Assembly (NCBI GenBank): GCA_043801155.1
Contig: JAZDMI010000021.1
Span: forward strand, 2,683-66,682
From: Candidatus Gottesmanbacteria bacterium
GTDB taxonomy: Bacteria > Patescibacteriota > Microgenomatia > JAMCYU01
Reading direction: 5' to 3'
DNA: 64,000 bases
Shown: piece by piece, positions 14,884 through 34,458 of the stretch
Numbering within the stretch: the stretch's first letter is position 1
Layout of the letters: every line of letters begins with the position of its first letter
Position numbers and translations under genes: made by a program
The notes under the pieces: generated by a model
The model's input: only the letters and a program-made list of their open reading frames with translations
Database searches by the model: none
Told to the model about the DNA's origin: nothing

Positions 14884-15447
14884 TCATAATTGGAATTCAC
14901 CGGTAACCCAGTCGTATTCGTTTTGCCAATTGCGGCCGGAACAACTCCAGCCTGGACTTTGTGGATGGGGTCGGGCAGTTGTTTCCATTTCTCTTATCCC
15001 TAAAACATAAAAAGTACCTCTAGCTGAAGGGCAACCATAACTGCCGGCAACGTAACGATAATAATTAAGATTATAGCATACTGATGTTCCTCCAAATGGA
15101 TCAGAAGCGTTAATTGAGGGATCGGTGATATTTGTTTTAAGATCACCCGAATCTTGAAGCGTCTTGATAAACGAAATTCCACATCCGGCTACTTCCCAAC
15201 CACCGCAAGGACTAGTACAGGTTGAATTGCCTCCGGAATTAGGCGGCGGGAAATTGCCATTAAGGATGCGATAACTACTTAGTGCTAGTCTTATTTGTGC
15301 TGTAAGTGATAATCTTTGAGCATCACGTGCCTTTTTAATTTTGCTGATCGGATTGATGGCCACCATTAATCCCGTAGATAATATACTTATAACCGCTACG
15401 ACTACTAGTAGTTCTATTAACGTAAATCCATTAGATAACTTGGACAT
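14884..15447 (-). CDS. type IV pilin / pseudopilin with prepilin-type N-terminal cleavage-methylation domain
   Basis: 'NGFTLIELLVVVAVISIL' class III signal; Cys pairs in the C-terminal domain. Confidence 0.8.
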   Translation of the reverse strand: MSKLSNGFTLIELLVVVAVISILSTGLMVAINPISKIKKARDAQRLSLTAQIRLALSSYRILNGNFPPPNSGGNSTCTSPCGGWEVAGCGISFIKTLQDSGDLKTNITDPSINASDPFGGTSVCYNLNYYRYVAGSYGCPSARGTFYVLGIREMETTARPHPQSPGWSCSGRNWQNEYDWVTGEFQL

Positions 15448-15475
15448 ATTTTCAGTATATACTATAATTTTATTA

Positions 15476-16567
15476 ATGAAAAGATTTTTTTATACATCCA
15501 TTTTTATCCTTATCTGTTTCGATATGCTGATTATTTTTTATTTGATAAGTATTCAACCTAAAGAAAATCAAAAGAAAATAGTTCCATTACAGGTCAATCT
15601 AAAAAAATCTTTAGAAGTAGATATTACTAATAAAAGTATTAACGTTAGTGATATCTTTAAATATCAAGATCCTGATTTTTCAGGTTATAATCCCAATGAA
15701 ATTGTGCTTTTAGCTACCGGTGATGTAATTCTAGCCAGAAGTGTCAATAGCTTAATGGTTTCGAAAAATAATTTTCTTTATCCATTTGAGAAGACCGCTA
15801 ATTTTTTAAAAAATTCTGACATAACTTTTATAAATCTGGAATCGCCCCTAATTCCCAATTGTGCAACCACAGTCGAAGGTATGGTTTTTTGTGGTAGTGA
15901 GAATGCCGTTGCAGGATTAGTTTTTAGTGGCGTTGACGTAGTCAGCATTGCTAATAACCATATGGCTGATCAAGGAGAGGATGGGATAAATAATACAACT
16001 AATATCCTGATGAAAAATAATATTGCCGTAACTGGTAACGGCAATCCGGCAATCTTAACGGCCAAAGGAAAAAAATTTGGATTTTTAGGGTACAACGATA
16101 TCAGTGAAAGATATGACTTATTGCCTAAGCCAGACGATATTCTTTTACAAAAAGATATTTATAAATTAAAACAAAAAGTGAACTATGTGATTGTTGCTTT
16201 TCATTGGGGGGTTGAATATACAGCCAGTCCTTCAGCCAGACAAGTCGAATTAGCCCATATGGCCATTGATAACGGTGCTGATTTGGTCATCGGTAATCAT
16301 CCTCACTGGGTGCAGGGAATTGAACAATACGAAGGGAAATTAATAACCTATGCCCATGGTAATTTTGTTTTTGACCAAATGTGGTCGCCAGAAACCAGGG
16401 AAGGCGTAATCGGTAAATATGTTTTTGGTAACAATGGTTTAAAGTCTGTTAATTTTTACCCAATCATTATTGAAAATTATGCTCAGCCAAGATTTGCCCA
16501 AAAAGAAGAAGCCGTCAAGATCTTGGAAAAAATGAAAGCCACATCGCCCATAGTCAAATCTCCCTAA
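15476..16567 (+). CDS. CapA/PGA-biosynthesis family metallophosphatase-like protein
   Basis: 'ANNHMADQGEDG', 'AFHWGVEYT', 'GNHPHWVQG', 'HGNFVFDQ' motifs; start set at ATG 15476 to avoid the antisense overlap with the pilin gene. Confidence 0.7.
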   Translation: MKRFFYTSIFILICFDMLIIFYLISIQPKENQKKIVPLQVNLKKSLEVDITNKSINVSDIFKYQDPDFSGYNPNEIVLLATGDVILARSVNSLMVSKNNFLYPFEKTANFLKNSDITFINLESPLIPNCATTVEGMVFCGSENAVAGLVFSGVDVVSIANNHMADQGEDGINNTTNILMKNNIAVTGNGNPAILTAKGKKFGFLGYNDISERYDLLPKPDDILLQKDIYKLKQKVNYVIVAFHWGVEYTASPSARQVELAHMAIDNGADLVIGNHPHWVQGIEQYEGKLITYAHGNFVFDQMWSPETREGVIGKYVFGNNGLKSVNFYPIIIENYAQPRFAQKEEAVKILEKMKATSPIVKSP

Positions 16568-16586
16568 CTTTGTTACACTTAACTGT

Positions 16587-19028
16587 GTGTATAAAGGACT
16601 TTCAGAAAACGAAACAGCTATTTTAAAAAGTAAATTTGGCGAGAATTCTCTTCCGGCAAAAGAGGCCACCAGTCCGTTAACTATTTTTATCTCTCAATTT
16701 AAAAGCCCACTAATTTATATCCTTTTAATTGTTGCCTTAATTTCTTTTCTATTTGCTCAATACTTTGATAGTCTGTTAATTTTTGCCGTGATATTGATTA
16801 ATGTTCTGATGAGTTTTTTCCAGGAATATAATGCCCAAAAAACCTTAGCCGCTCTTCAACAGGTCCTTAAACCTGAAGTCTTAGTAATAAGAGATGGCCT
16901 AAGAAAGCGTATTGAAGCAAAGTATCTATTACCCGGTGATTTAGTTGTTTTGGGAGCTGGTGATCGGATTCCGGCTGATGGGAAGCTGATTGAAGGGACC
17001 AGTTTCTTGGTTAACGAGGCAATTCTAACAGGAGAAGAAGAAGGAGTTAATAAGACAATCGAGGACAAGAGAAATTTACTTTTTATGGGAACAAGTATTC
17101 TTTTTGGTCAGGGAATTATGGAAGTCATAACGATCGGACAAACTACTCAAGTTGGAAAAATAGGTCAAAGTCTAACCGAGATTAAAGAAGAACCAACACC
17201 TCTTCAGAGACGACTAACACAATTTTCCAAATCTCTGGCTAAAGTTATCCTTGGTTTGTGTTTCTTTATTTTAATTATCGGAGTATTAAGTGGAAAAGAT
17301 TTCTGGATGATGCTTAAAACCTCGATTATATTATCGGTGGCCGCCATTCCCGAAGGATTACCGGTGGCGATTACCGTTATTTTGGTATTAGGCATGAGAA
17401 AAATACTAAAAAAACAGGGATTGGTTAAAAAGTTGCTGTCAATCGAAACTTTAGGTTCAACCTCAGTGATTTGCACTGATAAAACCGGGACACTGACCGA
17501 AGGAAAAATGAAGGTGGTTGAAACCGATTTTGTCGATCAGACCAAAGGAGTTTTAGCTTTAATGTTGGCCAATTATCAAAGGACTAATATCGAAATTGCT
17601 TTTTGGGATCATGCCCAAAGTAAAAAACATTTACTTCCCGCAGAAATTTTAACGTCGTTGACTAAGACATACGAGGAACCTTTTGATAGTGAAAAAAAAT
17701 ATACTCTGGTAATAAATAAAATGGCTGATAAAGAAACAGCCTTTATGGTAGGGGCAGCAGAAATTGTCCTAAATTTTTGCCGGCAAGACTCTTCTTCAAC
17801 AAAAAAAATTATCGCCATGATTGAGGATTGGGCTGACCGCGGATTAAAAGTTGTCGGATTGGCTTTTAAAGAAGACGGTAATTTGAAGGAAAAAAATAAT
17901 TTTTCTTGGCTGGGGCTTGTTGGTATTGAGGATCCCCTCCGGCAGGAAGCAAAAGAAGCGATTATCACAGCCCAAAAGGCCGGAATAAAAATAAAAATCG
18001 TTACCGGCGACTTACGGAAAACGGCTGAAAGAATCGCTAAAAATTTAGATTTACAGTTTTCCCCTGATCAAATTTTAGAAGGCAAGGAATTGGAAACGCT
18101 TACAGATTTAGAAATTAATAAAAGGATTAATAATATCGTTTTGTTTACCCGGGTTACTCCTCATCAAAAGTTAAAGATTGTCGAAATTTTACAGGCACGG
18201 GGTGAAGTGGTGGCGATGACCGGCGATGGGGTTAATGATGCGCCGGCTCTTAAAAAGGCCGATATCGGCGTTGTTGTCGGTACCGGATCGGATGTGGCGA
18301 AAGAAGCCGGAGATCTGATACTTCTGGATAATAATTTTAAAACAATCGTCTCTGCTTGTGAGGAAGGCAGATTGATTATTGCTAATCTGAAAAAAGTTAT
18401 CGGCTATGTTTTATCCAATTCGTTTTCCGAGATTATCTTAATTTTTGGGGCTATTATTACTCAACTACCAACACCATTAACCGTGGTTCAAATTCTTTGG
18501 ATTCATCTTATCTGTGACGGACCGCCGGACATTCTTTTGAGTTTTGAACCAAAAGAAAATGGCTTGATGTTACAAAAACCCAAAGACTTGAAAAACGATA
18601 TTATTCTTAGCCGAACAATGAAAGTGTTGATATTAACCGTCAGTTTGATATCCGGTTTAGGTTCACTGCTTGTTTTCAAATATTTTCTGCAAACCGGAAA
18701 TAATTTAACTATAGCCAGAACGATGATTTTTACCTTTTTATCTTTGGTCAGTCTGGTTTACATTTTTTCCTTTAAAAACCTGCATAAATCAGTTATTAAA
18801 ACTGAGAATTTTTTTGCGAATAAATACCTATTTTTGGGGGTATTGTATGGATTAATCCTAATTTTAGCAGCCGTTTATTTACCCTTTTTTAATCTGATAT
18901 TAGGAACAACTCCTCTTAATATTAAACAATGGTTATTAATCATCAGCCTTAGCTTGGCTATAACCGTAACCATTGAACTATTTAAATTGACCAATATTTT
19001 TCAAGAAAAAATAACCAGGACGGGTTAG
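16587..19028 (+). CDS. P-type cation-transporting ATPase (P2-type, Ca2+/Mg2+-like), GTG start
   Basis: 'ICTDKTGTLT' phosphorylation motif, 'TGDGVNDAPALKKADIGV' hinge, 10 TM helices; TGEE in place of TGES. Confidence 0.9.
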   Translation: MYKGLSENETAILKSKFGENSLPAKEATSPLTIFISQFKSPLIYILLIVALISFLFAQYFDSLLIFAVILINVLMSFFQEYNAQKTLAALQQVLKPEVLVIRDGLRKRIEAKYLLPGDLVVLGAGDRIPADGKLIEGTSFLVNEAILTGEEEGVNKTIEDKRNLLFMGTSILFGQGIMEVITIGQTTQVGKIGQSLTEIKEEPTPLQRRLTQFSKSLAKVILGLCFFILIIGVLSGKDFWMMLKTSIILSVAAIPEGLPVAITVILVLGMRKILKKQGLVKKLLSIETLGSTSVICTDKTGTLTEGKMKVVETDFVDQTKGVLALMLANYQRTNIEIAFWDHAQSKKHLLPAEILTSLTKTYEEPFDSEKKYTLVINKMADKETAFMVGAAEIVLNFCRQDSSSTKKIIAMIEDWADRGLKVVGLAFKEDGNLKEKNNFSWLGLVGIEDPLRQEAKEAIITAQKAGIKIKIVTGDLRKTAERIAKNLDLQFSPDQILEGKELETLTDLEINKRINNIVLFTRVTPHQKLKIVEILQARGEVVAMTGDGVNDAPALKKADIGVVVGTGSDVAKEAGDLILLDNNFKTIVSACEEGRLIIANLKKVIGYVLSNSFSEIILIFGAIITQLPTPLTVVQILWIHLICDGPPDILLSFEPKENGLMLQKPKDLKNDIILSRTMKVLILTVSLISGLGSLLVFKYFLQTGNNLTIARTMIFTFLSLVSLVYIFSFKNLHKSVIKTENFFANKYLFLGVLYGLILILAAVYLPFFNLILGTTPLNIKQWLLIISLSLAITVTIELFKLTNIFQEKITRTG

Positions 19029-21460: not shown

Positions 21461-22654
21461 ATGGCAGATGAAGCCAAGAAAAAATACGAGAGGAGTAAAC
21501 CTCATCTTAATATCGGAACTATTGGACATGTTGACCACGGTAAAACTACTTTAACCGCGGCCATTACTCAAGTTTTGGCAAAAAAAGGTTTTTCCAAAGC
21601 TTTGAAGTATGATGAAATTGATAACGCTCCGGAGGAAAAAGCCCGGGGATTGACGATTGCTATTTCTCATGTTGAGTATGAAACGGAAAAACGCCACTAT
21701 GCTCATATTGATTGTCCGGGACACGCCGATTATGTTAAAAACATGATTACCGGCGCCGCCCAGATGGATGGAGCCATATTAGTTGTCTCCGCTCCGGATG
21801 GACCGATGCCGCAAACCAGAGAACATGTACTTTTAGCCAGACAAGTTAATATTCCGGCGATGGTGGTATTTTTAAATAAAGTTGATATGGTTTCGGATCC
21901 GGAACTTCTTGATCTGGTCGAAATGGAAATCCGCGAGTTGTTAAAGAAATACAAATTTGACGGAGATAAAGTACCCATCATCCGCGGTTCAGCCCTAAAA
22001 GCCCTTGACGGAGACGCCAAGGCTGAAGAAGCAATCATGGAATTGATGAAAGCAGTTGATGAATATATTCCGACACCAACTCGAGACCTCGATAAACCAT
22101 TCTTAATGCCAATTGAAGACGTATTCTCAATCAAAGGCCGAGGAACGGTTGTTACCGGCCGGGTTGACCGGGGAAAGGTCAAAGTCAACGAGGAGCTAGA
22201 GATTGTTGGTATTAAAGCCACGACCAAAACAGTGGTTACCGGTGTTGAAATGTTTAGAAAAACTCTTGATGAGGGACAAGCCGGAGACAATATCGGAGTT
22301 TTGCTTCGGGGTGTTGAAAAAGACGATGTCGAGCGAGGCCAAGTCTTGGCCAAGCCGGGATCAATTACTCCTCATACAGAATTTGAGGCCGAAGTTTATG
22401 TTTTAACCAAGGATGAGGGAGGCCGTCATACGCCTTTCTTTACCGGTTATCGGCCGCAATTTTATCTCAGGACAACTGATGTTACCGGTGAAGTAACCTT
22501 ACCCAAGGGTGTGGAAATGGTTATGCCCGGTGACAATACCAAGATGATGATTAAACTGATTGTACCGGTAGCAATTGAAGAGGGTTTACGATTTGCTATT
22601 CGTGAAGGTGGTCATACCGTCGGCGCCGGAGCAGTTAGTAAGATTATTGCCTAA
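21461..22654 (+). CDS. tuf: elongation factor Tu
   Basis: '[15 protein letters not shown]', 'DCPGHADY', 'NKVD' motifs. Confidence 0.97.
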
Positions 22655-22703
22655 TTAGATATTGATATTAGGAATTAGGAATTGGTAATTAAGAATTTAT
22701 TTT

Positions 22704-23012
22704 ATGCCAAAAGGCAGAATCCGTGTACGTTTAAAAGCTTATGACAGTCGGGTTTTAGATGCTTGCTGTCAGCAAATCCTTGATACGGCCGTACGGACCG
22801 GCGCTAAGGTCGTGGGTCCGATACCACTGCCAACAGACAAATCCCGTTATTCTGTTCCCAAATCCCCGTTTACCGACAAAGACAGCCGCGAAGATTTCCA
22901 AATAAGAACACATAAAAGATTAATTGATATCCTTGAGCCAACCGATAAAACCATTGATCAACTGGCCCACCTCGATCTACCTGCAGGAGTTGACATTGAA
23001 ATAAAGATGTAG
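22704..23012 (+). CDS. rpsJ: 30S ribosomal protein S10
   Basis: '[15 protein letters not shown]' S10 signature. Confidence 0.93.
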
Positions 23013-23028
23013 ATCCCCACACTAATTT
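23013..23028. repeat. left arm of a 16-bp perfect inverted repeat bracketing the GIY-YIG ORF
   Basis: ATCCCCACACTAATTT at 23013-23028; reverse complement at 23298-23313. Confidence 0.8.
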
Positions 23029-23031
23029 CCT

Positions 23032-23289
23032 ATGTTTTATGTATACATTTTAAAAAGCAAAAAAGATGGAAATTTATACACAGGATCAACCAATGATTTA
23101 AAACGCCGTATTGAAGAACATAATTCAGGTTTAGTTTATTCGACGAAAAACCGAAAGCCATTTAAGTTAATATACTATGAAGCATATAGTGATGAAAGTG
23201 ATGCTAGAAATAGAGAGCACAATTTAAAGTTAAGAGCAAAAGCCCTAGGTCAATTAAAAAGAAGGATAAAGGAAAGTCTATCTAAATAA
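23032..23289 (+). CDS. GIY-YIG nuclease superfamily protein (YhbQ/UPF0213-like)
   Basis: 'FYVYILKSKKDGNLYTGSTNDLKRRIEEHNSG' canonical GIY-YIG N-terminus. Confidence 0.8.
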   Translation: MFYVYILKSKKDGNLYTGSTNDLKRRIEEHNSGLVYSTKNRKPFKLIYYEAYSDESDARNREHNLKLRAKALGQLKRRIKESLSK

Positions 23290-23297
23290 TATAAATA

Positions 23298-23313
23298 TAA
23301 TTAGTGTGGGGAT
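23298..23313. repeat. right arm of the 16-bp inverted repeat
   Basis: AAATTAGTGTGGGGAT. Confidence 0.8.
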
Positions 23314-23315
23314 AA

Positions 23316-23663
23316 ATGTCTGATATACAAAAATTAACCCAGCAAATTCTAAAATTTCGCAATAAAAGGGATTGGAAGCATTTCCATTATCCTAAGGACA
23401 TGGCCATTTCTTTGGCACTGGAGGCGGCCGAGGTTCTGGAACATTTTCAATGGAAAACCCAGGAAGAAGTTGAAGCGTATCTGAAGACGCATAAAACTCA
23501 TATCGCTGACGAACTGGCCGATGTTTTGTGGTGGGTGCTATTAATGAATCATGATTTGAATATTGATGTGATGAGGGCTTTCGATAAAAAATTAAAAATC
23601 AACGAAGAAAAATATCCGGTTGATAAAGCCAAGGGTACACATAAAAAATATACCGAGTTGTAA
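23316..23663 (+). CDS. MazG-like nucleotide pyrophosphohydrolase
   Basis: Two EExxE/D-like helices ('EAAEVLEHFQWK', 'ELADVLWWVLLM'). Confidence 0.6.
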   Translation: MSDIQKLTQQILKFRNKRDWKHFHYPKDMAISLALEAAEVLEHFQWKTQEEVEAYLKTHKTHIADELADVLWWVLLMNHDLNIDVMRAFDKKLKINEEKYPVDKAKGTHKKYTEL

Positions 23664-23761
23664 GATGATATCTTTTATTTCTCAATAAATACTCTGACTT
23701 TAACTTCAATATTTGACCTCGGTGTTAAAATAGTAATTATTAGAATTATTAGGAGGCATAT

Positions 23762-23956
23762 ATGAGATATGAAAATAATTGTATGCATCCTGCCATTGTT
23801 TATATTCCGGATCTTAGGCCAGGGTCATATGATGCTAATGGTTTAATGGTTGGGTCACTGAAACATATTCCAAAAGAAAAAATTCAAAAGACAGATGTTT
23901 CAGCTAAATATAGACGAATAGGGCCTCCGATTCGTATTGTTGCCAAAGGGTATTAA
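23762..23956 (+). CDS. hypothetical small protein
   Basis: SD 'aggaggcatatATG'; no recognisable motif. Confidence 0.35.
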   Translation: MRYENNCMHPAIVYIPDLRPGSYDANGLMVGSLKHIPKEKIQKTDVSAKYRRIGPPIRIVAKGY

Positions 23957-23983
23957 ATTATTAATTTTCAATGTCGGCAACAT

Positions 23984-24358
23984 CTACTCTTTGTTTTTTT
24001 CTAATTCGTCTTTAATTTGCGGAGCGATATTATCCAAGAAAATCTGATCAACAAGTTCTTCGGTTATATGAGCTTCTCTTGGCCCAAAATGCTGCATAAA
24101 AACATGATGTTGCCCTATTTTATCCGGACTTAATTGTATTTGACAATAAGTATTGGGGAAGCTGCGGTGGATAAAATTACAAATGATTGTTCCACTTTTA
24201 AGCATAACTGTTTCCCATACAGAAATTTGATTTGGTTTCAAATCTTTATGTTTTGGAACTGGAATATCCTCTCCGACGAGCAGATAAACATCAGGCCAAT
24301 CTAAAGGATTGTACTCATTAAGAGAAATTGGTTGTCTTTCTTGTTTAGAGTTATTCAT
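23984..24358 (-). CDS. hypothetical protein
   Basis: ORF preceded on its own strand by a copy of the duplicated promoter/start module (24381-24454). Confidence 0.45.
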   Translation of the reverse strand: MNNSKQERQPISLNEYNPLDWPDVYLLVGEDIPVPKHKDLKPNQISVWETVMLKSGTIICNFIHRSFPNTYCQIQLSPDKIGQHHVFMQHFGPREAHITEELVDQIFLDNIAPQIKDELEKNKE

Positions 24359-24380
24359 ATTTAAACTTGTTCTCGAGCTT

Positions 24381-24454
24381 CAGGATTTATTGACATAAGA
24401 AAGATATTCTACACATTCAAGTTATAATATACAAATCCTGACTAATTCCCACAT
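24381..24454 (-). repeat. copy 1 of an approximately 75-nt promoter plus start-codon module (reading on the minus strand: TTGTAT, 17 nt, TAGAAT ... ATGTCAATAAATCCTGAA, then a stop after 11 codons)
   Basis: About 85% identical to 25968-26041. Confidence 0.7.
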
Positions 24455-24550
24455 CGGTATTCTACCGAAACGGCTTTCCATATAAATGTGCCATTTCTGA
24501 GTGAGACACACTATGATAAAATGGGAACAATAACGGAAAGAAATTAACAC

Positions 24551-25057
24551 ATGTCTAAAACAAAAACAAATGAAATTGTTTATGCATTTATAGATAGCCA
24601 GAATCTCAATTTAGGAGTCAGGAGTCAAAATTGGATTTTAGATTTTGACCGTTTTCGTGTTTATTTAAAAGAAAAGTACGGAACAAAGAAAGCATTTTTG
24701 TTTATAGGTTATGTTGAAGGCAATCAAAGCTTATACACATATTTACAAAAATCCGATTATATATGCATATTTAAGCCTACGTTGGAACTTAATAAAAATA
24801 AAAAAGTAAGAATAAAAGGTAATGTTGATGCTGAATTAGTGCTTCATTCGATGATAGAGTATCCCAATTATGATAAGGCTATAGTTGTTTCCGGTGATGG
24901 AGACTTTCATTGTTTGGTGGAGTATTTAAAGGAGAAAAATAAGCTATTGAAAATAATTGTTCCAAATAGAAAATATTCTTCCCTGCTTAGAGAATTTAGT
25001 AACTATATAGTTAATATAGGGTTGATGCGAAGCAAGTTAGAATTGAGAAAGAAATGA
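24551..25057 (+). CDS. NYN-domain (LabA-like, PIN-related) putative RNase
   Basis: 'VYAFIDSQNL...FLFIGY...VVSGDGDFHCLVEYL' NYN signature. Confidence 0.65.
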   Translation: MSKTKTNEIVYAFIDSQNLNLGVRSQNWILDFDRFRVYLKEKYGTKKAFLFIGYVEGNQSLYTYLQKSDYICIFKPTLELNKNKKVRIKGNVDAELVLHSMIEYPNYDKAIVVSGDGDFHCLVEYLKEKNKLLKIIVPNRKYSSLLREFSNYIVNIGLMRSKLELRKK

Positions 25058-25198
25058 AAAGAGAGGCATTCCCTCGGGACGAAACCCTTTGGTAGTCCTC
25101 TCATCGTGATAAAAACATTATACTAAATTTACCTCACTACTGTCAAATACTGTATAGTCTCAGAGGGAAAAAGCATTTTTCTACTTAATGTTTAAAGC

Positions 25199-25570
25199 TT
25201 ATAATTTGGGGAAAATTCCCGAGCTCATCACTTCAATAGCTCTAAGAATAGCTTCCCGGGATTCTTTAGTAGGTTGCACGTCGTCAATAATTGAATCATT
25301 TAGTTTGTATTTTGGCAATAATCTTCTGGCCGCGGCAATAAATTGTGTCTCGAATTCCATTGTCATTTCTCTATTAGGAACACTTTCGAAACCCGGAGAA
25401 TTAAGTATTTCCAGATATGTTTTTGCAGTTCTGACATTACCTTTCAGAGCATCTTGATCTAAAAGAAGCGTAGAACTTCCCCAAGGATCCCTTTCTAATA
25501 ACTTTTGGGCGACGACCCGATCATAAACTTCTGCACGTATATTTTTAAATGTTTCACTGGCATTTGACAT
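25199..25570 (-). CDS. hypothetical small protein, paralogue A of the tandem pair
   Basis: About 40% identity to 25620..25982 ('DPxxxSxLxLDQxAL...YLEILNSxGxExxPxR...RLxPKYxL'); start placed at the ATG (MSNASE) homologous to the MSINPE/MAINPE starts. Confidence 0.5.
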   Translation of the reverse strand: MSNASETFKNIRAEVYDRVVAQKLLERDPWGSSTLLLDQDALKGNVRTAKTYLEILNSPGFESVPNREMTMEFETQFIAAARRLLPKYKLNDSIIDDVQPTKESREAILRAIEVMSSGIFPKL

Positions 25571-25619
25571 AAGAGGCACATTCTACCTTATTTAGGAAAA
25601 AAAGTATTCCCCTTTAAAT

Positions 25620-25982
25620 TTATTTTTGATTATTAGCTATATATAGAAAAACACCTGCCCGGCAAATTTGGTCTGGTTTGATTTTTTCTAAATAATCCGG
25701 CTTAAGTCCGTATTTTGGTATTAATCTCGAAACGGCATCAATTAAAGATGTCTCACGTTTTAAAAAATCTGCCCGATCAGGAAAGTTCTCATAGCCGGAT
25801 GAATTTAAAATTTCGATAATAGCTTTTGATACCATAACGTGTTCGATTAAGGCAAACTGGTCTAGGATAAGAGAACTTCTATTACAAGGATCCGGAACAA
25901 GGACTGATCTCGCCAGGTAAATATCAGTCATGATCTCAGGTGTTAAACCTAGTTGTTCTAGAGTTTCAGGATTTATTGCCAT
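25620..25982 (-). CDS. hypothetical small protein, paralogue B
   Basis: See paralogue A; its start codon lies inside repeat copy 2. Confidence 0.5.
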   Translation of the reverse strand: MAINPETLEQLGLTPEIMTDIYLARSVLVPDPCNRSSLILDQFALIEHVMVSKAIIEILNSSGYENFPDRADFLKRETSLIDAVSRLIPKYGLKPDYLEKIKPDQICRAGVFLYIANNQK

Positions 25983-26041
25983 AAGAGAGATATTCTACAT
26001 ATTTGAGTTATAATATACAAATTCTGCCAAATTCCCATCTC
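25968..26041 (-). repeat. copy 2 of the promoter plus start module (TTGTAT, 17 nt, TAGAAT ... ATGGCAATAAATCCTGAA = MAINPE start of 25620..25982)
   Basis: Aligns base-by-base with 24381-24454. Confidence 0.7.
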
Positions 26042-26151
26042 TAAATTTATCTATGTCTCGGATAATAACTCATTAAAATGTATAGGCCAGCCACGTACAG
26101 TCGCCGAAATCCCGTTAATTAGACCCATATTACGGTTATATTAACGGTATA

Positions 26152-26183
26152 TTGACAAAATATCGTTAATATGTTAACATATT
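26152..26183 (+). promoter_or_regulatory. Fic promoter with overlapping 16-bp perfect palindrome (candidate operator); near-leaderless start
   Basis: TTGACA(26152), 17 nt, TAACAT; palindrome AATATGTTAACATATT 26168-26183 abuts the GTG/ATG start; CGTTAAT half-site repeats at about 26112, 26143, 26164 and 26195. Confidence 0.45.
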
Positions 26184-27056
26184 GTGATGAGATTAACGCG
26201 GTTACAGGTGATTTCTGAACTGTTTGCCCAGTACCAGACAAAAAAAATAAACAAAGAATCTCTTCTTTCTATGGTCGATGATGTGGAAATTGCAGAGAGG
26301 GTCTACAACTCCAATGCCATAGAAAACTCGACACTCACCTTGCCCGAAACGGAAAAAATCCTGCTTCAGCTTGAAGTGAATAGGCATATATCGCTTAGAG
26401 AAGTTTTTGAGGCAAAAAATTTAGCCCAAGTCTACAACTATATTAAAAATACTGCCCCTCAAAAACCACTTTCCCTAGATATGATTTTATTACTTCATAA
26501 AATCCTGCTTACCAATATCCGTGATGAAGTTGCAGGACAGTTTCGTACGGGAAACGAAATGGTGCGGGTAGGAAATCACATCGGCATACCCTCGGAATTT
26601 ATAAGTCAAAGGATTCAAGAAATGCTCGTTCAATATAATTCAGACATGGAAATTTCCTTTATTCATAAAATTGGCCGTTTACATGCGGAGTTTGAAAGTA
26701 TTCACCCTTTTATTGACGGAAATGGCAGGATCGGACGAGTTCTTAATAACTATTTACTTATCCGTGAAGGATTTCCTCCGATTATCGTTAGAAATAAAGA
26801 TAAAGAAACTTATTATGATGCCCTGCGTTCATATGACACTTCGCATAATTTTAAACCAATGATGCGCATAGTTGAGTTAGCTGTTTTAGAATCTTTTCAT
26901 AAACGTCTGGCTTACCTTGAGGGACAGCGGATAATTCCTCTTACTGAATATGCGGCTACTCAAAAAAGATCTTTCCATACTCTTTTAAATTCAAGCCGTC
27001 GTCAAACTATTCCTGCTTTTCGCGAGAAAGGCGTCTGGAAAATCGGAGTAAAATAG
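26184..27056 (+). CDS. Fic/Doc family protein, class II-like with N-terminal inhibitory motif
   Basis: 'HPFIDGNGRIGR' Fic active-site motif; N-terminal 'SNAIEN' fits the (S/T)xxxE(G/N) autoinhibitory motif. Confidence 0.85.
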   Translation: MMRLTRLQVISELFAQYQTKKINKESLLSMVDDVEIAERVYNSNAIENSTLTLPETEKILLQLEVNRHISLREVFEAKNLAQVYNYIKNTAPQKPLSLDMILLLHKILLTNIRDEVAGQFRTGNEMVRVGNHIGIPSEFISQRIQEMLVQYNSDMEISFIHKIGRLHAEFESIHPFIDGNGRIGRVLNNYLLIREGFPPIIVRNKDKETYYDALRSYDTSHNFKPMMRIVELAVLESFHKRLAYLEGQRIIPLTEYAATQKRSFHTLLNSSRRQTIPAFREKGVWKIGVK

Positions 27057-27065
27057 GAGAAAATC

Positions 27066-27104
27066 AAAAAAGTCAAAAGAGAGGAAAGAGGAGAGAGAAA
27101 AATT
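27066..27104 (+). repeat. GA-rich leader repeat, copy 1 (upstream of the GNAT gene)
   Basis: aaaaagtcaaaagagaggaaagaggagagagaaaaattt; near-identical copy at 27584-27623. Confidence 0.6.
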
Positions 27105-27106
27105 TA

Positions 27107-27577
27107 ATGAAAATAAATAAACAAATAAAAATCGAAAAACTTACCGAGAAGAGGTTTAATGAAGCGGTTAATTTGGTTTTGGTCGCCAACCTTGATACGC
27201 GGGAAGAAATTGAACATCACCTAAAACATCTGGATGCCCATTATATTGCCCTTGATAATGATAAAATTGTCGGAGTTATCGGTTGGTATCAGGATAATGT
27301 TCATTATGCCAATGAGGCTATGGGTGATAAATTTCCCGGAGAAGAGGCCTACTGGGTGGGATTTTTTACCACTGATAAAAATTACCGGAGGCAGGGAATT
27401 GGTTTTGCCCTGCTTCAAAAATTGGAGCAGGTAATAAAAGAAAAAGGAGAGGATAAAATTTGGGTATCCTCGGTGCCGGAAACAAAAGACTATTATCAAA
27501 GACAAGGATTTGAATTAGTTTTAATGGGATATATCAACGGCAACCAAAAATGTTTTATGGTTAAAAAACTTCAGTAA
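27107..27577 (+). CDS. GNAT family N-acetyltransferase
   Basis: 'YRRQGIGFALL' acetyl-CoA binding motif A. Confidence 0.7.
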   Translation: MKINKQIKIEKLTEKRFNEAVNLVLVANLDTREEIEHHLKHLDAHYIALDNDKIVGVIGWYQDNVHYANEAMGDKFPGEEAYWVGFFTTDKNYRRQGIGFALLQKLEQVIKEKGEDKIWVSSVPETKDYYQRQGFELVLMGYINGNQKCFMVKKLQ

Positions 27578-27583
27578 AAATTA

Positions 27584-27623
27584 AAAAAGTCAGAAGAGAG
27601 AGGAAAGAAGAGAGAGGAAAATT
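27584..27623 (+). repeat. GA-rich leader repeat, copy 2 (upstream of hsdM)
   Basis: aaaaaagtcagaagagagaggaaagaagagagaggaaaatt. Confidence 0.6.
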
Positions 27624-29099
27624 ATGTTTGAACAATCATTTAAAAATATTGATGATATTCTTCACCGGGATGCCGGATGCGCCACGGAATTAGATTATAT
27701 AGAACAAACTTCATGGATTCTATTCTTGAAATACCTTGATGATTTAGAGGAAACAAAAAGGAAAGAAGCGGTTTTAAAAAATAGACAATATGAATATATT
27801 ATTGCTCCTGAATTTCGCTGGAGCGCTTGGGCGGAACCAAAAACGAAAGATGGCAAATTAGATATGAATAAGGCGTTAACCGGAGACGATCTAAGAGACT
27901 TTGTAAATTTAAAACTTTTTCCATATCTTAAGAAATTTAAAATCGACAATAACGAGAATCAAACAACTATTGAATATAAAATTGGAGAAATTTTCAGTGA
28001 GCTAAAAAACAGGATTGAAAGCGGATACAGACTTCGTGAAATTCTTAACATTGTAGATACGATGCATTTTCGAACCGATAGCGATAAACACGAACTCTCA
28101 CATCTTTATGAAGCTAAAATTAAGAACATGGGAAATGCCGGACGAAACGGCGGAGAATATTACACTCCTCGTCCGCTTATTAAAACGATAGTTAAGGTGG
28201 TAATCCCAAAGATTGGCGATACTATATATGATGGAGCCTGCGGATCTGCCGGATTTCTAGTAGAGTCTTTTGATTATCTTAAACAAAGTAAAGAATTATC
28301 TACCTCAGAATCCGTAAAGCTACAAAATAATACTTTTTACGGTAAGGAAATAAAATCACTTGCATATATTATCGGTGTTATGAATATGATTCTTCATGGT
28401 ATTGAAGCGCCGAATATTCTCCATACAAATACGCTTGCTCAAAACATCAATGATATCGAGGAAAAAGATCGGGTTGACGTAATCCTTACGAATCCGCCAT
28501 TTGGTGCAGGAATAGGTCGGGAAATTCAGCAAAATTTTCCGATAAAAACCGGCGAGACGGCATATCTTTTCCTCCAACACTTTATCAAAATGCTCAAAGC
28601 CGGAGGAAAAGCCGGAGTGGTGATTAAAAATACTTTTCTTTCTAATACTGATAACGCATCCGCTTCGCTTCGTAAACGTCTTCTTGAGAGTTGTAATCTT
28701 CACACCGTGCTTGATTTGCCTGGCGGCGTCTTTACGGGAGCAGGTGTAAAAACCGTGGTATTGTTTTTTGAAAAAGGCTCGCCAACCAAAAAAGTATGGT
28801 TCTATCAGTTAAACCTTGACCGCAATCTAGGCAAAGGTAATCCCTTAAGCGAAGCGGATCTATCAGAATTCGTCGAACTGCAAAAAACCAAAGCAGGTAG
28901 CAAAAATTCTTGGAGCGTAGACATAAAAGATATTAATCAAACAACATTTGATTTATCGGTAAAGAATCCAAACAAAGGGAGAGAAGTAACCCTACGCGAA
29001 CCGAAAGAGATTTTGGAGGGAATGAGGAAGCTAGACAAGGAAAGTGAAAATACATTTAAGATTATTAAAAACATATTAAATACTGGAATAAATGAATAA
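27624..29099 (+). CDS. hsdM: type I restriction-modification system, N6-adenine DNA methyltransferase subunit
   Basis: 'LTNPPFGAG' motif IV, 'YDGACGSAGFL' motif I, HsdM N-terminal domain. Confidence 0.9.
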   Translation: MFEQSFKNIDDILHRDAGCATELDYIEQTSWILFLKYLDDLEETKRKEAVLKNRQYEYIIAPEFRWSAWAEPKTKDGKLDMNKALTGDDLRDFVNLKLFPYLKKFKIDNNENQTTIEYKIGEIFSELKNRIESGYRLREILNIVDTMHFRTDSDKHELSHLYEAKIKNMGNAGRNGGEYYTPRPLIKTIVKVVIPKIGDTIYDGACGSAGFLVESFDYLKQSKELSTSESVKLQNNTFYGKEIKSLAYIIGVMNMILHGIEAPNILHTNTLAQNINDIEEKDRVDVILTNPPFGAGIGREIQQNFPIKTGETAYLFLQHFIKMLKAGGKAGVVIKNTFLSNTDNASASLRKRLLESCNLHTVLDLPGGVFTGAGVKTVVLFFEKGSPTKKVWFYQLNLDRNLGKGNPLSEADLSEFVELQKTKAGSKNSWSVDIKDINQTTFDLSVKNPNKGREVTLREPKEILEGMRKLDKESENTFKIIKNILNTGINE

Positions 29100-29730
29100 T
29101 TTATTAGCCTTGTTAGAGAAATATCAGACCCAAAATATTATCGCCGTCATAGCTTTAATATTGGCTTATTTAGCGTACAGAAAATCGGTTATTGATGAGT
29201 ATAGGAGTTGGTTGGATCTGGCAAAATCTTTCCAACACGAATTGAATTACGCAAAATATTGGATAGGAAATAGTTATGAAAAGATGATGAGTATAGATTG
29301 GTCGAATCCCTCCAGATTTGTTTATCCTCTTACCGCCGAAGCCGCGAAAGCGTTAATTTGGAAAGGACATCCGCCAAAGAGAATATTCCCAGATGATTTT
29401 TTTGATAAATTAGCTATATATAACGAACGTATTCAGGCATTTAACCATTTTTTAATGATTCAAGGAATCAATTATGTAGTGGCGGAAGTTGATAATAAAA
29501 ATGAAAAAATTTCAGAAAAAGCAAAGCATATTAATTATATCATCCATAATGATCTTATAGGTAGCCAGGATAATTATCACTTACACAATCTTTATAATTA
29601 TTTTAGTTGTCAATTGAAAATGATTGAAAAAGCAGATCTTTTGCTGATTCCATGGTATTTTAAATATCCTGAACGAATAGTTCTTGCTACTATTTTTATT
29701 TATATTATAGTTGATTATTTTATTCAGTGA
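29092..29730 (+). CDS. hypothetical membrane-associated protein embedded between hsdM and hsdS
   Basis: Start overlaps the hsdM stop and stop overlaps the hsdS start (translational coupling); N- and C-terminal hydrophobic helices; no known motif. Confidence 0.55.
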   Translation: MNNLLALLEKYQTQNIIAVIALILAYLAYRKSVIDEYRSWLDLAKSFQHELNYAKYWIGNSYEKMMSIDWSNPSRFVYPLTAEAAKALIWKGHPPKRIFPDDFFDKLAIYNERIQAFNHFLMIQGINYVVAEVDNKNEKISEKAKHINYIIHNDLIGSQDNYHLHNLYNYFSCQLKMIEKADLLLIPWYFKYPERIVLATIFIYIIVDYFIQ

Positions 29731-30884
29731 TTATGAAAACCAACTGGCAAACAAAAAAACTCGAAGATGTAGCAAATGTTCATGGTGGTGGTACTCCACC
29801 AACCAGTCACCCAGAATATTTTCAAGGAAATATAAATTGGTATTCTCCAACTGAGATACCTAAATTCGAAGTTACAACGCTCAAAGAAAGTCAGAAAAAA
29901 ATTTCCGATTCTGCAATAAAATTTACTACTATTTCAAGAACAAATTCAGTCCTTTTAACAAGCAGAGCTACAATTGGTACGGTTGGTATTTTGTCAACTG
30001 CTTCCGGATATAGTCAGGGCATAAAAGGAATCGAACCGGGTCCCGAACTAGACTCGTGGTATCTAGCGCATTGGTTGAGATCAAATAAAGATGAGATTAT
30101 TAATAAGGCTTCTGGTACAACCTTTAAGGAAATTAGTACAAGTGAAATAAAAAAGCTAGAAATTCCTATCCCTCCAATTGCTCAGCAAAAGAAAATTGTT
30201 AATTCCATAGAGAATATCTTGGGAAAAATTGAAAAGGCAAAAGAGAATACAGAGAAAAATCTGCAAAACGCCAAAGCTCTTTTTGAATCATATTTACAAA
30301 GTATTTTTGCGAATCCAGGAAAAGATTGGGAAGAGAAAAGATTAGGTGATGTTTGTATGGTCATTGCTGGTCAATCACCGGAAGGAAAATTCTATAACAA
30401 ATCGGGTAGGGGTTTACCTTTCTATCAGGGAAAAAAAGAATTTGAAGAAAGATATCTTGGGAAACCAACAACATGGACAACAGACATTACCAAAGAGGCG
30501 CAAAATGGTGATATTTTAATGTCAGTTCGAGCCCCTGTGGGACCTATTAATTTTGCAACTCAAAAAATTTGCATCGGTCGGGGTCTTACCGCAATTCGAG
30601 CCGGAAAAGATATTGATGAAAACTTTTTATTTTATAATTTACTCTCAAAAGAAAAAGAAATCATTGGTAATGCCGGAGCTGTATTTGCATCAATCAATAA
30701 ATCCGACATTGAGAGTTTAAAATTATTTTTACCATCTCTTCCCGAACAAAAATCTATTGATATAAAACTTGACACAATTTATGCCGAAACAAAAAAACTG
30801 GAAGCAATTTATAAACAAAAATTAGCTGATTTAGAAGAGCTAAAAAAATCGGTTTTGAGAAAAGCATTTAAAGGAGAATTGTAA
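29727..30884 (+). CDS. hsdS: type I R-M specificity subunit
   Basis: Two target-recognition domains separated by conserved coiled-coil repeats ('IAQQKKIV..IE..L', 'LPEQKSI...KL'). Confidence 0.85.
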   Translation: MIMKTNWQTKKLEDVANVHGGGTPPTSHPEYFQGNINWYSPTEIPKFEVTTLKESQKKISDSAIKFTTISRTNSVLLTSRATIGTVGILSTASGYSQGIKGIEPGPELDSWYLAHWLRSNKDEIINKASGTTFKEISTSEIKKLEIPIPPIAQQKKIVNSIENILGKIEKAKENTEKNLQNAKALFESYLQSIFANPGKDWEEKRLGDVCMVIAGQSPEGKFYNKSGRGLPFYQGKKEFEERYLGKPTTWTTDITKEAQNGDILMSVRAPVGPINFATQKICIGRGLTAIRAGKDIDENFLFYNLLSKEKEIIGNAGAVFASINKSDIESLKLFLPSLPEQKSIDIKLDTIYAETKKLEAIYKQKLADLEELKKSVLRKAFKGEL

Positions 30885-30886
30885 TT

Positions 30887-31606: not shown

Positions 31607-31617
31607 ATCTAAAAATT

Positions 31618-33972: not shown

Positions 33973-34085
33973 TTTTTTGCATTTTCTGTCCTTCCTAATT
34001 CAATCAATTTTTATTATGGCTTTTAATTAGAATTAGTGTTATAATAATAGTGGTTTAAGCGGTCTGCGTTTGGCAGACGACTATT

Positions 34086-34110
34086 GCAGCCTATCAGGGC
34101 TGCTTTTTTT
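34086..34110 (+). terminator. rho-independent terminator-like hairpin after hsdR
   Basis: GCAGCC tatcag GGCTGC followed by T7; preceded by a second hairpin, GTCTGC..GCAGAC. Confidence 0.6.
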
Positions 34111-34130
34111 ATGGAAGGAGGTGAAAAAAG

Positions 34131-34430: not shown

Positions 34431-34458
34431 CTGGTAAATAAAAGGATAAAATAAAAAT

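What the first reader, a model, noticed from the sequence alone, without database searches (positions are those of the whole stretch)
23013..23313. GIY-YIG nuclease gene precisely bracketed by 16-bp perfect inverted repeats, inserted directly after rpsJ
ATCCCCACACTAATTT at 23013-23028 and its exact reverse complement at 23298-23313 enclose only the 85-aa GIY-YIG ORF (23032..23289). This is a cassette-like, possibly mobile or hairpin-regulated unit. It sits at the position where rplC normally follows rpsJ, and could be the leading edge of the 34-kb insertion.
Basis: seen in the sequence. Interest (0 to 1): 0.55.

Follow-up and report, generated by a model that had tools for sequence, protein, structure and literature searches.

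The report
GIY-YIG nuclease gene inside its palindrome
A tiny nuclease gene wedged directly after the ribosomal gene rpsJ is bracketed by matching inverted repeats, and these prove to be a conserved, selected hallmark of a widespread ~300-bp cassette in ultra-small (CPR) bacteria, closest to the Ssn nuclease and hairpin-repeat systems described in 2025.

Summary
The perfect inverted repeat is 15 bp (23013-23027 / 23299-23313), not 16. It brackets only the 85-aa GIY-YIG ORF. It starts at the base after the rpsJ stop codon and ends 2 nt before the next gene's ATG.

Taken alone, such a repeat arises by chance in about 15% of windows this size. It is not chance here. In 79 loci with homologous genes from many CPR phyla, 61 of 87 intact copies carry the same kind of arms. 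The arms share a sharp outer end and a conserved core (ACCCCCACACC ... GGTGTGGGGGT). The inner bases vary between loci but stay complementary. Arms diverge about three times more slowly than third codon positions, and arm type tracks protein clade.

Cassettes sit in unrelated contexts, often squeezed between genes or directly 5' of tRNA genes. None of 80 related rpsJ loci has one.

The closest known system is Ssn/NTS, a single-domain GIY-YIG ssDNA nuclease flanked by its hairpin target repeats. Here the gene lies inside one split palindrome, the motif does not match the published Ssn motif, and the repeat is not dispersed.

My reading is a cassette carrying its own cognate palindrome. The proposed "34-kb insertion" is not one element.

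The parts
22704..23012 (+). rpsJ (ribosomal protein S10), the upstream neighbour. Its stop codon TAG (23010-23012) abuts the left arm. It is context, not part of the cassette.
   Evidence: Pfam Ribosomal_S10 E=2.1e-34; sequence
23013..23027 (+). Left arm, ATCCCCACACTAATT. Its outer end holds the family core (A/T)(T/C)CCCCACAC.
   Evidence: Exact reverse complement of 23299-23313. It aligns with the left arms of 50 homologous loci.
23028..23031 (+). 4-nt spacer (TCCT) between the left arm and the ATG. There is no Shine-Dalgarno-like sequence and no room for a promoter, so the ORF must be transcribed by read-through from tuf-rpsJ.
   Evidence: Sequence. No promoter-like site lies between rpsJ and the ORF.
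23032..23289 (+). 85-aa single-domain GIY-YIG nuclease ORF. It is intact and keeps every residue that is invariant in the family (Y5, Y16, G18, R26, H30, E50, E62, N64, K66).
   Evidence: Pfam PF01541 E=1.5e-18; family alignment; AlphaFold model pLDDT 92.9 with a GIY-YIG fold
23290..23298 (+). 9-nt AT-rich spacer (TATAAATAT) between the stop codon and the right arm. In many relatives the right arm overlaps the stop codon instead.
23299..23313 (+). Right arm, AATTAGTGTGGGGAT. It ends in the G-run that marks the outer boundary of the family.
23316..23663 (+). MazG-like ORF (115 aa), the downstream neighbour. Its ATG lies 2 nt after the right arm. It is context, not part of the cassette, and it is not found next to other cassettes.
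   Evidence: Pfam MazG-like PF12643 E=4.2e-19; no MazG relative in any other fetched locus

Best explanation
Positions 23013-23313 are one copy of a compact, horizontally spread cassette, about 300 bp from C-run to G-run. It consists of a single-domain GIY-YIG nuclease gene carried between the two halves of its own palindrome.

Shown:
- The arms are part of the unit.
- The arms are kept complementary by selection.
- The arms have a sequence-conserved outer core.
- Arm type co-diverges with the protein.
- The unit has landed in many unrelated intergenic positions. These are typically squeezed between two co-directional genes or directly 5' of a tRNA gene.
- In this window the unit lies at the rpsJ / MazG-like junction and has no promoter of its own.

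Inferred, by analogy with Ssn/NTS and with RAYT/REP: when the DNA is single-stranded (replication, repair or uptake), the arms pair into a stem with the gene as the loop. This structure, or the short solo hairpins that keep the same ends, would be the site the encoded nuclease binds and cuts. That would underlie the unit's spread or persistence. The same stem in read-through mRNA may in addition hold down nuclease translation.
For: 1. Family-wide arms. Of 90 homologous gene copies, 45 have a perfect flank repeat of at least 12 bp, against 2.7% for permuted flank pairs. Of 87 intact copies, 61 have an arm score of at least 12.
2. Covariation on 51 arm pairs. 80.2% of cells are paired against 60.0% in shuffles. 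The covariation score is 0.512 against 0.167 (0 of 500 shuffles reach it) and at most 0.16 when partners are slid. Columns 5-24 pair and columns 2-3 mostly do not (column 4 only partly), so the outer edge is sharp. Columns 6-14 are conserved in sequence, and columns 15-24 vary with compensation.
3. Selection on the arms. In 9 pairs of related cassettes, arm divergence is 0.11 against 0.35 at third codon positions and 0.10 at first and second positions. L035 and L042 carry matched double changes in both arms.
4. Arm-motif class tracks protein clade. The nearest protein neighbour has the same class in 47 of 54 cases; permutations give a mean of 19.6 and a maximum of 31.
5. Independent contexts:
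   - The closest relatives (81-82% aa) have arms ATCCCCACACTTAATCAAATT or ACCCCCACACTTAATTAAATT and entirely different neighbours.
   - Others lie between an ABC permease and its ATPase, or between a PIN gene and FtsK.
   - About 25 of 79 loci have a co-oriented tRNA gene starting 5-40 nt downstream.
   - None of 80 related rpsJ loci has a cassette.
6. Short solo hairpins with the same ends exist. The one in L041 equals the full element minus the gene and keeps the asymmetry between the two arms.
7. Published precedent. Ssn nucleases are single-domain GIY-YIG proteins that cut ssDNA next to hairpin repeats flanking their own gene (PMC11893778). The Azospirillum and Shinella homologues of the window protein (about 42% identity over residues 2-67; 44.8 and 37.3 bits) are each flanked by four canonical Ssn motifs.
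8. The protein is intact and strongly conserved: 73% mean column identity across phyla, with catalytic residues invariant.
9. Both the DNA and the RNA minimum-energy folds of 23003-23323 close with the arm stem.
Against: 1. No biochemical link between this protein and these arms has been shown. Co-divergence could be plain co-inheritance.
2. The core motif is not dispersed. Outside gene neighbourhoods its density is 3.1 per 100 kb, against 2.8 per 100 kb in unrelated CPR loci, and the rest of this window has none. This is unlike NTS or REP expansions.
3. There is no sign of recent movement. Two proteins found on 24 contigs each always sit in the same context, and related species share occupied sites.
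4. No general target-site duplication is visible.
5. GIY-YIG enzymes hydrolyse DNA and cannot rejoin it, so any movement would need host repair.
6. By sequence the CPR clade is as close to the housekeeping UPF0213 group as to Ssn-like proteins. CPR-profile scores are 63.6 and 59.0 bits for UPF0213 against 60.3 and 58.2 bits for Ssn-like proteins.
7. The published Ssn motif pattern is absent here.
Confidence: 0.55

Rival explanations
1. RNA-level device. The arms matter only in the transcript. In read-through mRNA from the host operon they form a long-range stem that loops out the nuclease ORF. This could mask its start region, as in the fold-back inhibition known for IS10 (my own knowledge). 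It could mark a processing site. It could also bring the upstream stop codon next to the downstream start codon, so that host genes stay translationally coupled across the insert.
For: - The cassette has no promoter of its own, and its left arm starts at the base after the rpsJ stop.
- The RNA fold closes with the arm stem, z = -3.1, and 0 of 100 shuffles fold as well.
- In many loci the arms cover the ATG and the stop codon.
- In 14 of 53 loci an upstream ORF stops 0-7 nt before the left arm.
- In 12 of 53 loci a downstream ORF starts 0-5 nt after the right arm, and about 9 more have a tRNA 5' end there.
- Downstream tRNA genes are almost always co-oriented.
Against: - There is no excess of G:T over A:C mismatches on the sense strand (28 against 25), which an RNA-only stem would be expected to show.
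- The outer core is conserved in sequence, not merely in pairing.
- Solo hairpins without any ORF keep the same ends.
- No Rfam family matches the region.
- This reading is compatible with the main explanation rather than exclusive of it.
Confidence: 0.2
2. Homing into a pre-existing palindrome. The gene is a free-standing homing endonuclease gene that inserts into the loop of a short palindromic host or MITE-like element. On this view the arms are the two halves of the target, not the ends of a transposon.
For: - Solo hairpins with identical ends and short loops occur near cassettes in L004, L005, L041, L061, L063 and L069.
- The L041 solo hairpin equals left arm plus right arm with the gene removed.
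- There is no target-site duplication.
- Arm class tracks protein clade, as expected if the nuclease recognises the palindrome.
Against: - Unoccupied palindromes are rare: about 14 in 598 kb of loci and none in this window.
- Arms of 15-25 bp are short for recombination-dependent homing.
- The palindrome is conserved across phyla together with the gene, which fits cargo better than host target.
- Known GIY-YIG homing enzymes carry extra DNA-binding domains that this protein lacks (PMC11893778).
Confidence: 0.15
3. Integron-type cassette, or the leading edge of one 34-kb mobile island inserted between rpsJ and rplC.
For: - The cassette lies exactly at the break in the usual rpsJ-rplC order.
- A defence-gene block follows it.
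Against: - The 34 kb contains housekeeping genes (Obg, an EngB-like GTPase, a DEAD-box helicase, YceG, LytR).
- No matching arm or repeat lies at the far end.
- No integrase is present and the arms show no attC-like asymmetry.
- The rpsG-fusA junction in this genome is broken as well.
- rplC keeps its own promoter-like leader and hairpin at 57.3-57.46 kb.
Confidence: 0.03
4. Chance repeat or assembly artefact.
For: A spaced repeat of at least 15 bp arises somewhere in 15% of simulated 64-kb windows.
Against: - The same architecture, with the same core sequence, occurs in dozens of independent assemblies.
- Covariation and slow arm divergence point to selection.
Confidence: 0.01

Closest known systems
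Ssn nucleases with NTS/SRM hairpin repeats (Chenal et al. 2025, Nat Commun 16:2388; PMC11893778)
   Same: - Both are single-domain GIY-YIG proteins of about 85-97 aa.
- In both, the gene is bracketed on both sides by inverted-repeat DNA specific to its clade.
- Both are inserted inside host operons. The Azospirillum copy sits between sufB and sufC.
- The window protein is significantly similar to SRM-flanked members: 44.8 bits and about 42% identity over residues 2-67.
   Different: - Here each flank is only half of a palindrome, so the gene lies inside one split hairpin. In Ssn the gene lies between complete hairpins.
- The core is ACCCCCACACC, and the published SRM pattern is absent.
- The repeat is not amplified in the genome.
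- The C-terminus is a basic helix (LKLRAxALxQLKxRI) rather than the W-rich KKWxRxWK...NPxW tail.
- Membership of the Ssn clade (CDD cd10448) could not be settled.
- ssDNA cleavage is untested.
RAYT/REP: the REP-associated tyrosine transposase gene flanked by inverted REP sequences (discussed in PMC11893778; otherwise my own knowledge)
   Same: A single nuclease-type gene is flanked by inverted copies of a short palindromic motif that also occurs without the gene.
   Different: The enzyme here is GIY-YIG, not an HUH/Y1 transposase. There is no genome-wide REP-like expansion.
IS200/IS605 single-strand 'peel and paste' elements (my own knowledge; cited)
   Same: Both are small, lack target-site duplication, rely on DNA secondary structure at their ends, and show a marked insertion-site preference.
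   Different: IS200/IS605 ends are separate subterminal hairpins, not one long-range stem. Their transposase forms covalent intermediates, whereas GIY-YIG enzymes only hydrolyse DNA.
Free-standing and intron-encoded GIY-YIG homing endonucleases (I-TevI, phage Seg proteins)
   Same: They share the catalytic fold (I-TevI catalytic domain 1ln0 is found by fold search), a selfish intergenic lifestyle, and secondary structure that hides the start region (my own knowledge for phage T4).
   Different: Homing enzymes carry long DNA-binding extensions, whereas this protein is the bare catalytic domain plus one helix. It falls far below the NCBIfam group I intron endonuclease cut-off (22.7 against 56 bits) and is almost absent from viral contigs.
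UPF0213 / YazA / YhbQ mini GIY-YIG proteins (PDB 1zg2, 1ywl)
   Same: They match in size and fold and give the best solved-structure hits. The CPR profile scores them as high as Ssn-like proteins.
   Different: yazA is a syntenic housekeeping-type gene that overlaps its neighbours trmNF and rsmI in both Bacillus and Listeria, leaving no flanking intergenic DNA that could carry arms.

Membership tests
Ssn family (CDD cd10448; PMC11893778) | Single-domain GIY-YIG protein of roughly 90-100 aa with no accessory DNA-binding domain | tested here: met
   85 aa; one Pfam GIY-YIG domain covers residues 1-70. The model is beta-beta-alpha-beta plus one long C-terminal helix, pLDDT 92.9.
Ssn family (CDD cd10448; PMC11893778) | Falls in the Ssn clade. 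The paper's criterion is BLASTP E<1e-10 with at least 75% coverage against N. meningitidis SsnA (CAX49033.1), or a top CDD hit to cd10448. | tested here: inconclusive
   Neither the SsnA sequence nor CDD was available to me. As a proxy I compared scores against SRM-flanked homologues and against UPF0213 proteins.
- Window protein against SRM-flanked homologues: 44.8 bits (Azospirillum) and 37.3 bits (Shinella).
- Window protein against UPF0213: 40.0-40.3 bits (BH0048) and 39.7 bits (YazA).
- CPR profile: 60.3 and 58.2 bits against 63.6 and 59.0 bits.
The clade is equidistant from the two groups.
Ssn family (CDD cd10448; PMC11893778) | Gene flanked on both sides by Ssn-related motifs matching HGTCWYN(0-2)YYVSBRHN(0-5)WNVSBRGN(0-2)RNCYNB, each a self-contained hairpin | tested here: not met
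   The window has 0 matches, and 598 kb of CPR loci have 2. The same regular expression finds 4 motifs around each of the Azospirillum and Shinella genes. The flanks here are half-palindromes that pair only with each other.
Ssn family (CDD cd10448; PMC11893778) | Site-specific cleavage of ssDNA only, next to the cognate hairpin | not testable with these tools
   Requires purified protein and oligonucleotide substrates.
Ssn family (CDD cd10448; PMC11893778) | Cognate motif present in many copies around the genome (species-dependent in the paper) | tested here: not met
   The core 8-mer occurs only in the two arms in 64 kb. Its density away from the genes is 3.1 per 100 kb, against 2.8 per 100 kb in control CPR loci. 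Whole genomes were not available.
Terminal-inverted-repeat insertion sequence | Terminal inverted repeats, a recognised transposase, target-site duplication, and multiple identical copies | tested here: not met
   Inverted repeats are present. However, the only gene is a hydrolytic nuclease, and there is no general flanking direct repeat. Identical proteins always sit in one context.
Free-standing GIY-YIG homing endonuclease | GIY-YIG catalytic domain joined to a DNA-binding region, with presence/absence polymorphism at a defined target | tested here: inconclusive
   There is no DNA-binding extension. The NCBIfam grpIintron_endo score is 22.7 bits against a cut-off of 56. No closely related empty site could be recovered, because exact look-ups of the window proteins found nothing. 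Solo hairpins that look like empty sites do exist elsewhere.
UPF0213 (YazA/YhbQ) | Conserved syntenic housekeeping-type gene without flanking repeats | tested here: not met
   The window gene has arms and lies at a non-conserved position. yazA overlaps trmNF and rsmI in two genera.
Integron gene cassette | A single imperfect attC site at the 3' end, in an array next to an integron integrase | tested here: not met
   The two arms are symmetric, one at each end. No integrase was found among the annotated ORFs between 13.8 and 58.6 kb.

The most novel reading that the evidence does not exclude
The cassette is a previously unrecognised minimal mobile element: a bare GIY-YIG nuclease gene carried in the loop of its own DNA hairpin. 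It would spread through single-stranded intermediates, insert precisely at gene junctions and at the 5' ends of tRNA genes, and use its arms a second time in RNA, so that the host genes on either side stay expressed as if nothing had been inserted.
Probability: 0.2. Interest if true: 0.8.

Novelty: new variant of a known kind. Interest (0 to 1): 0.55.

Why it matters
- It widens the Ssn picture. The 2025 finding of a bare GIY-YIG domain paired with DNA hairpin repeats around its own gene would extend to the CPR/Patescibacteria, with a different motif and a different layout: one split palindrome that encloses the gene.
- It offers new tools. If the nuclease really reads its arms, the family provides many natural enzyme-site pairs for single-stranded-DNA cutting.
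- It offers a model system. A 300-bp unit would be very small for something that persists and spreads in streamlined genomes.
- It helps annotation. The many "GIY-YIG nuclease family protein" genes scattered through CPR genomes have recognisable boundaries, and they often sit exactly at operon junctions and in front of tRNA genes.

Tried and rejected
- Exact-sequence look-ups of the window's GIY-YIG, MazG-like and S10 proteins found no contig. No near-identical strain, and so no true empty site, could be examined.
- The Ssn paper has no supplementary text held. N. meningitidis SsnA could therefore not be compared directly, and SRM-flanked plasmid homologues served as proxies.
- The published SRM pattern does not match the CPR arms.
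- Rfam has no match in 22600-23800.
- NCBIfam gives only a sub-threshold group I intron endonuclease hit.
- Viral contigs hold no close relative and only one distant relative.
- The sense-strand wobble test, meant to separate RNA from DNA constraint, was uninformative (28 G:T against 25 A:C).
- A link between the cassette and the MazG-like neighbour was rejected, because no other locus has one.
- The other spaced repeats in the window (16624/17072 and 18129/18592) are AT-rich and lie inside a P-type ATPase gene, so they are chance.
- The arms are not intrinsic terminators. No T-run follows the right arm, and the terminator scan finds nothing there.
- Recent transposition was sought with two proteins seen on many contigs and was not found.
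- Literature searches found no earlier description of this CPR architecture.

Full report
**What is at the site**

The window reads: rpsJ (22704-23012, S10, Pfam E=2.1e-34), then ATCCCCACACTAATT (23013-27), TCCT, and an 85-aa ORF (23032-23289, GIY-YIG PF01541, E=1.5e-18). After the ORF come TATAAATAT, AATTAGTGTGGGGAT (23299-313), AA, and the ATG of a 115-aa MazG-like ORF at 23316.

The two 15-mers are exact reverse complements. With mismatches the complementarity runs to 31 nt at 77%.

No promoter-like or terminator-like site separates rpsJ from the ORF. No tRNA gene lies in the window, and Rfam finds nothing in the region. The protein is identical to a GenBank entry from a Candidatus Gottesmanbacteria MAG, on a 272,544-bp contig.

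**Is it more than chance?**

Taken alone, only weakly. A spaced perfect repeat of at least 15 bp turns up in 15% of simulated windows. Against that:
- This ORF ranks first of 148 ORFs for flank-to-flank complementarity.
- The core 8-mer occurs nowhere else in the 64 kb.

The decisive evidence comes from relatives.

**The arms are a family feature**

A scan of one genome per GTDB species returned 79 loci with homologous genes of about 85 aa. Most come from Patescibacteria/CPR lineages and a few are labelled otherwise.
- Of 90 gene copies, 45 have a perfect repeat of at least 12 bp between their flanks, against 2.7% when flanks are paired at random.
- Of 87 intact copies, 61 have an arm score of at least 12.

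Printed side by side, the arms start at a sharp outer edge, usually (T/C)ACCCCCACACC on the left and GGTGTGGGGGT(G/A) on the right. They run inward for 15-29 nt and often cover the ATG and the stop codon.

I aligned 51 arm pairs in register and counted pairs.
- 80.2% of cells are standard pairs, against 60.0% in shuffles.
- The covariation score is 0.512 against 0.167 (0 of 500 shuffles reach it). It is at most 0.16 when partners are slid by 1-3 columns.
- Columns 2-3 mostly fail to pair, and column 4 pairs only partly.
- Columns 6-14 are nearly constant in sequence.
- Columns 15-24 vary freely but with compensation.

This alignment was built from the detected repeats and so leans towards the structure. 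The slid controls and the next test do not share that bias.

In nine pairs of related cassettes (81-96% protein identity), the arms differ at 0.11 per site. Third codon positions differ at 0.35, and first and second positions at 0.10. L035 and L042 carry the same two changes in both arms. The pairing is therefore under selection.

Arm-motif classes follow the protein tree. The classes are CCCCACAC, CCCCTCAC, CCCCGCACC, CCCCACC and CCCGTTAG-like. The nearest protein neighbour shares the class in 47 of 54 cases, where permutations give at most 31.

**Evidence that the unit moves or has moved**

The closest relatives of the window protein (81-82% identity) carry arms ATCCCCACACTTAATCAAATT (21 nt, perfect) or ACCCCCACACTTAATTAAATT. 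They sit between entirely different genes. Similarity to the window begins and ends exactly at the arms.

Other copies lie in further contexts:
- between an ABC permease and its ATPase, or between a PIN toxin gene and ftsK;
- in about 25 of 79 loci, 5-40 nt upstream of a co-oriented tRNA gene, involving many different tRNA species.

The fit between neighbouring genes is tight.
- In 14 of 53 loci an upstream ORF stops 0-7 nt before the left arm.
- In 12 of 53 loci a downstream ORF starts 0-5 nt after the right arm's G-run.
- The span from C-run to G-run is 275-345 bp in all but one locus.

Short solo hairpins and MITE-like pieces of 30-80 nt with the same ends occur near some cassettes. The one in L041 equals the local element with the gene removed, down to the small asymmetry between its arms.

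The protein itself is remarkably uniform across phyla, at 73% mean column identity. That fits horizontal spread under purifying selection. A published survey also lists GIY-YIG domain proteins among genes that Patescibacteria donate to other bacteria (PMC12455944).

Against ongoing mobility:
- Two proteins seen on 24 contigs each always have the same neighbours.
- Sister species share occupied sites.
- The family is essentially absent from viral contigs.
- There is no general target-site duplication.

**The rpsJ junction**

I fetched the 80 metagenome loci with the most similar S10 proteins (62-86% identity) and examined them.
- In 51 loci, rplC follows rpsJ as the next gene.
- In nine more, rplC lies within about 2 kb.
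- None has a GIY-YIG relative.

In the nearest relatives the rpsJ-rplC spacer is 100-140 nt, with a promoter-like box and a hairpin followed by a T-run just before rplC. The window keeps a comparable leader at 57.3-57.46 kb, in front of its rplC. rplC is thus a separate transcription unit, and the junction is a permissive place for rearrangement.

The intervening 34 kb holds two kinds of genes:
- a defence-type block: MazG-like, NYN, Fic, GNAT, type I R-M, NUDIX, Mrr, PD-(D/E)XK;
- ordinary housekeeping genes: Obg, an EngB-like GTPase, a DEAD-box helicase, YceG, LytR, cyclophilin.

The rpsG-fusA junction is interrupted as well. I therefore reject the idea of a single 34-kb insertion led by the cassette. 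All that can be said is that the cassette occupies the breakpoint.

**Comparison with what is known**

Chenal et al. 2025 (PMC11893778) described Ssn. These are single-domain GIY-YIG proteins of about 94 aa (CDD cd10448). They bind a hairpin repeat (NTS, or more generally SRM) and cut single-stranded DNA beside it. Their genes are typically flanked by those repeats: 42% have repeats on both sides, giving an NTS-ssnA-NTS layout that the authors liken to insertion sequences and to RAYT/REP.

I tested the link in four ways.

1. Homology. A translated search of plasmids found homologues in Azospirillum lipoferum and Shinella (E=2e-8 and 3e-6). Each proved to be flanked by four canonical SRMs, for example CGTCATCCCCGCGAAGGCGGGGATCCAG. 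The window protein scores 44.8 and 37.3 bits against them, with about 42% identity over residues 2-67.

2. Clade membership. The CPR profile scores the housekeeping UPF0213 proteins just as high. YazA scores 63.6 and BH0048 59.0 bits, against 60.3 and 58.2 bits for the SRM-flanked proteins. Membership of the Ssn clade is therefore undecided. UPF0213 genes behave differently in the genome: yazA overlaps trmNF and rsmI in both Bacillus and Listeria, which leaves no flanking intergenic DNA for arms.

3. Motif. The published SRM pattern is absent from the window and at chance level in the CPR loci. Each CPR flank is only half of a palindrome.

4. Dispersal. The CPR core is not amplified. It occurs at 3.1 per 100 kb away from the genes, against 2.8 per 100 kb in control loci.

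The predicted structure is a confident GIY-YIG fold with one 30-residue basic C-terminal helix. Its nearest solved folds are UPF0213 BH0048, the structure-selective nuclease Slx1, the UvrC N-terminal domain, and the I-TevI catalytic domain. The W-rich C-terminal tail of the SRM-flanked proteins is missing.

Overall, the cassette works like Ssn/NTS on the available evidence. It is not shown to be a member, and it fails the motif criterion.

**Mechanism**

Shown: the arms belong to the unit, they pair, they are selected, they have a sequence-specific core, and they co-diverge with the protein.

Inferred: the paired arms are the nuclease's cognate site. They would pair in single-stranded DNA with the gene as the loop, or exist as a solo hairpin. 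Both DNA and RNA folds of 23003-23323 close with this stem.

The main rival is an RNA-only role: masking the nuclease start, processing, or keeping flanking host genes coupled. The tight stop/arm and arm/start junctions and the lack of a promoter support it. The conserved core sequence, the ORF-less solo hairpins and the absence of a sense-strand wobble bias (28 against 25) do not favour it as the sole role. The two readings can both be true.

**Verdict**

It is one instance of a widespread, selected "gene inside its own palindrome" cassette, and I found no earlier description of this layout for CPR bacteria. I rate it a new variant of a known kind (Ssn-like), of moderate interest.

Noticed in passing
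L067 3930-4335; also L075, L079, L062, L043 (upstream flank and downstream tRNA): In the more distant tRNA-adjacent copies, the ORF lies between a partial copy of a tRNA and a complete copy of the same tRNA (Trp or Cys).
- In L067, L075 and L079 the partial copy is the 5' half, running up to the anticodon loop, and the ORF starts right after it. In L062 and L043 only a shorter 5' segment is duplicated.
- The ORF's last codons overlap the 5' end of the complete tRNA.
- The partial copy carries inserted perfect palindromes such as CCCCGTCGCTCGCGAGCGACGGGG, and these covary between loci.
- In the CCCCTCAC class (L035, L042, L053, L036, L047), a 7-15-nt direct repeat flanks the element. It consists of tRNA nt 1-10, in some loci together with the end of the right arm.
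The mechanism is unexplained.
   Followed up: partly
window 57467-57904: Ribosomal protein L3 is only 145 aa. Residues 36-144 align with residues 106-214 of the 217-aa L3 of the closest relative (L080). About 70 residues of the N-terminal region are therefore missing.
   Followed up: partly
window 14884-19028: The rpsL-rpsG / fusA-tuf-rpsJ cluster is also interrupted between rpsG and fusA. The inserted genes are a pilin-like gene (minus strand), a PGA_cap gene and a P-type ATPase. Gene order in the ribosomal-protein cluster is thus broken at more than one point in this genome.
   Followed up: no
window 23316-37519: A run of defence- or toxin-type genes lies directly downstream of the cassette: MazG-like, NYN, two unknown ORFs, Fic, GNAT, type I R-M (HsdM, S, R with two unknown ORFs), NUDIX, Mrr, DUF6498 and PD-(D/E)XK.
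   Followed up: partly
L165 1379-1890 (Azospirillum lipoferum plasmid AZO_p3): An Ssn-type GIY-YIG gene with two canonical SRMs on each side is inserted between sufB and sufC. It occupies an operon-internal position, like many of the CPR cassettes.
   Followed up: partly
L182 470-1020 (Planktothrix agardhii plasmid p1): A 94-aa Ssn-like gene lies between an MmeI-type R-M gene and DISARM drmA. The motif TGTCATTCTGAG occurs once upstream and three times in tandem downstream.
   Followed up: no
L175 2413 onward, compared with L170: In one population variant, synteny breaks inside the 3' part of the cassette. The right arm and ftsK are replaced by a PIN/Phd pair and a UvrD-like helicase gene. Like the window copy, this cassette sits at a rearrangement boundary.
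   Followed up: partly
window 57307-57466; L080-L089 downstream of rpsJ: In related genomes the rpsJ-rplC spacer holds a promoter-like box and a GC hairpin followed by a T-run just before rplC. The window keeps a comparable leader (GGTGCAGTCGGCACC followed by T7) in front of its relocated rplC.
   Followed up: no
window 50345-50878 (minus strand): The flanks of a zinc-ribbon ORF share a 12-bp inverted repeat, the second longest ORF-flank repeat in the window. It was not examined further.
   Followed up: no
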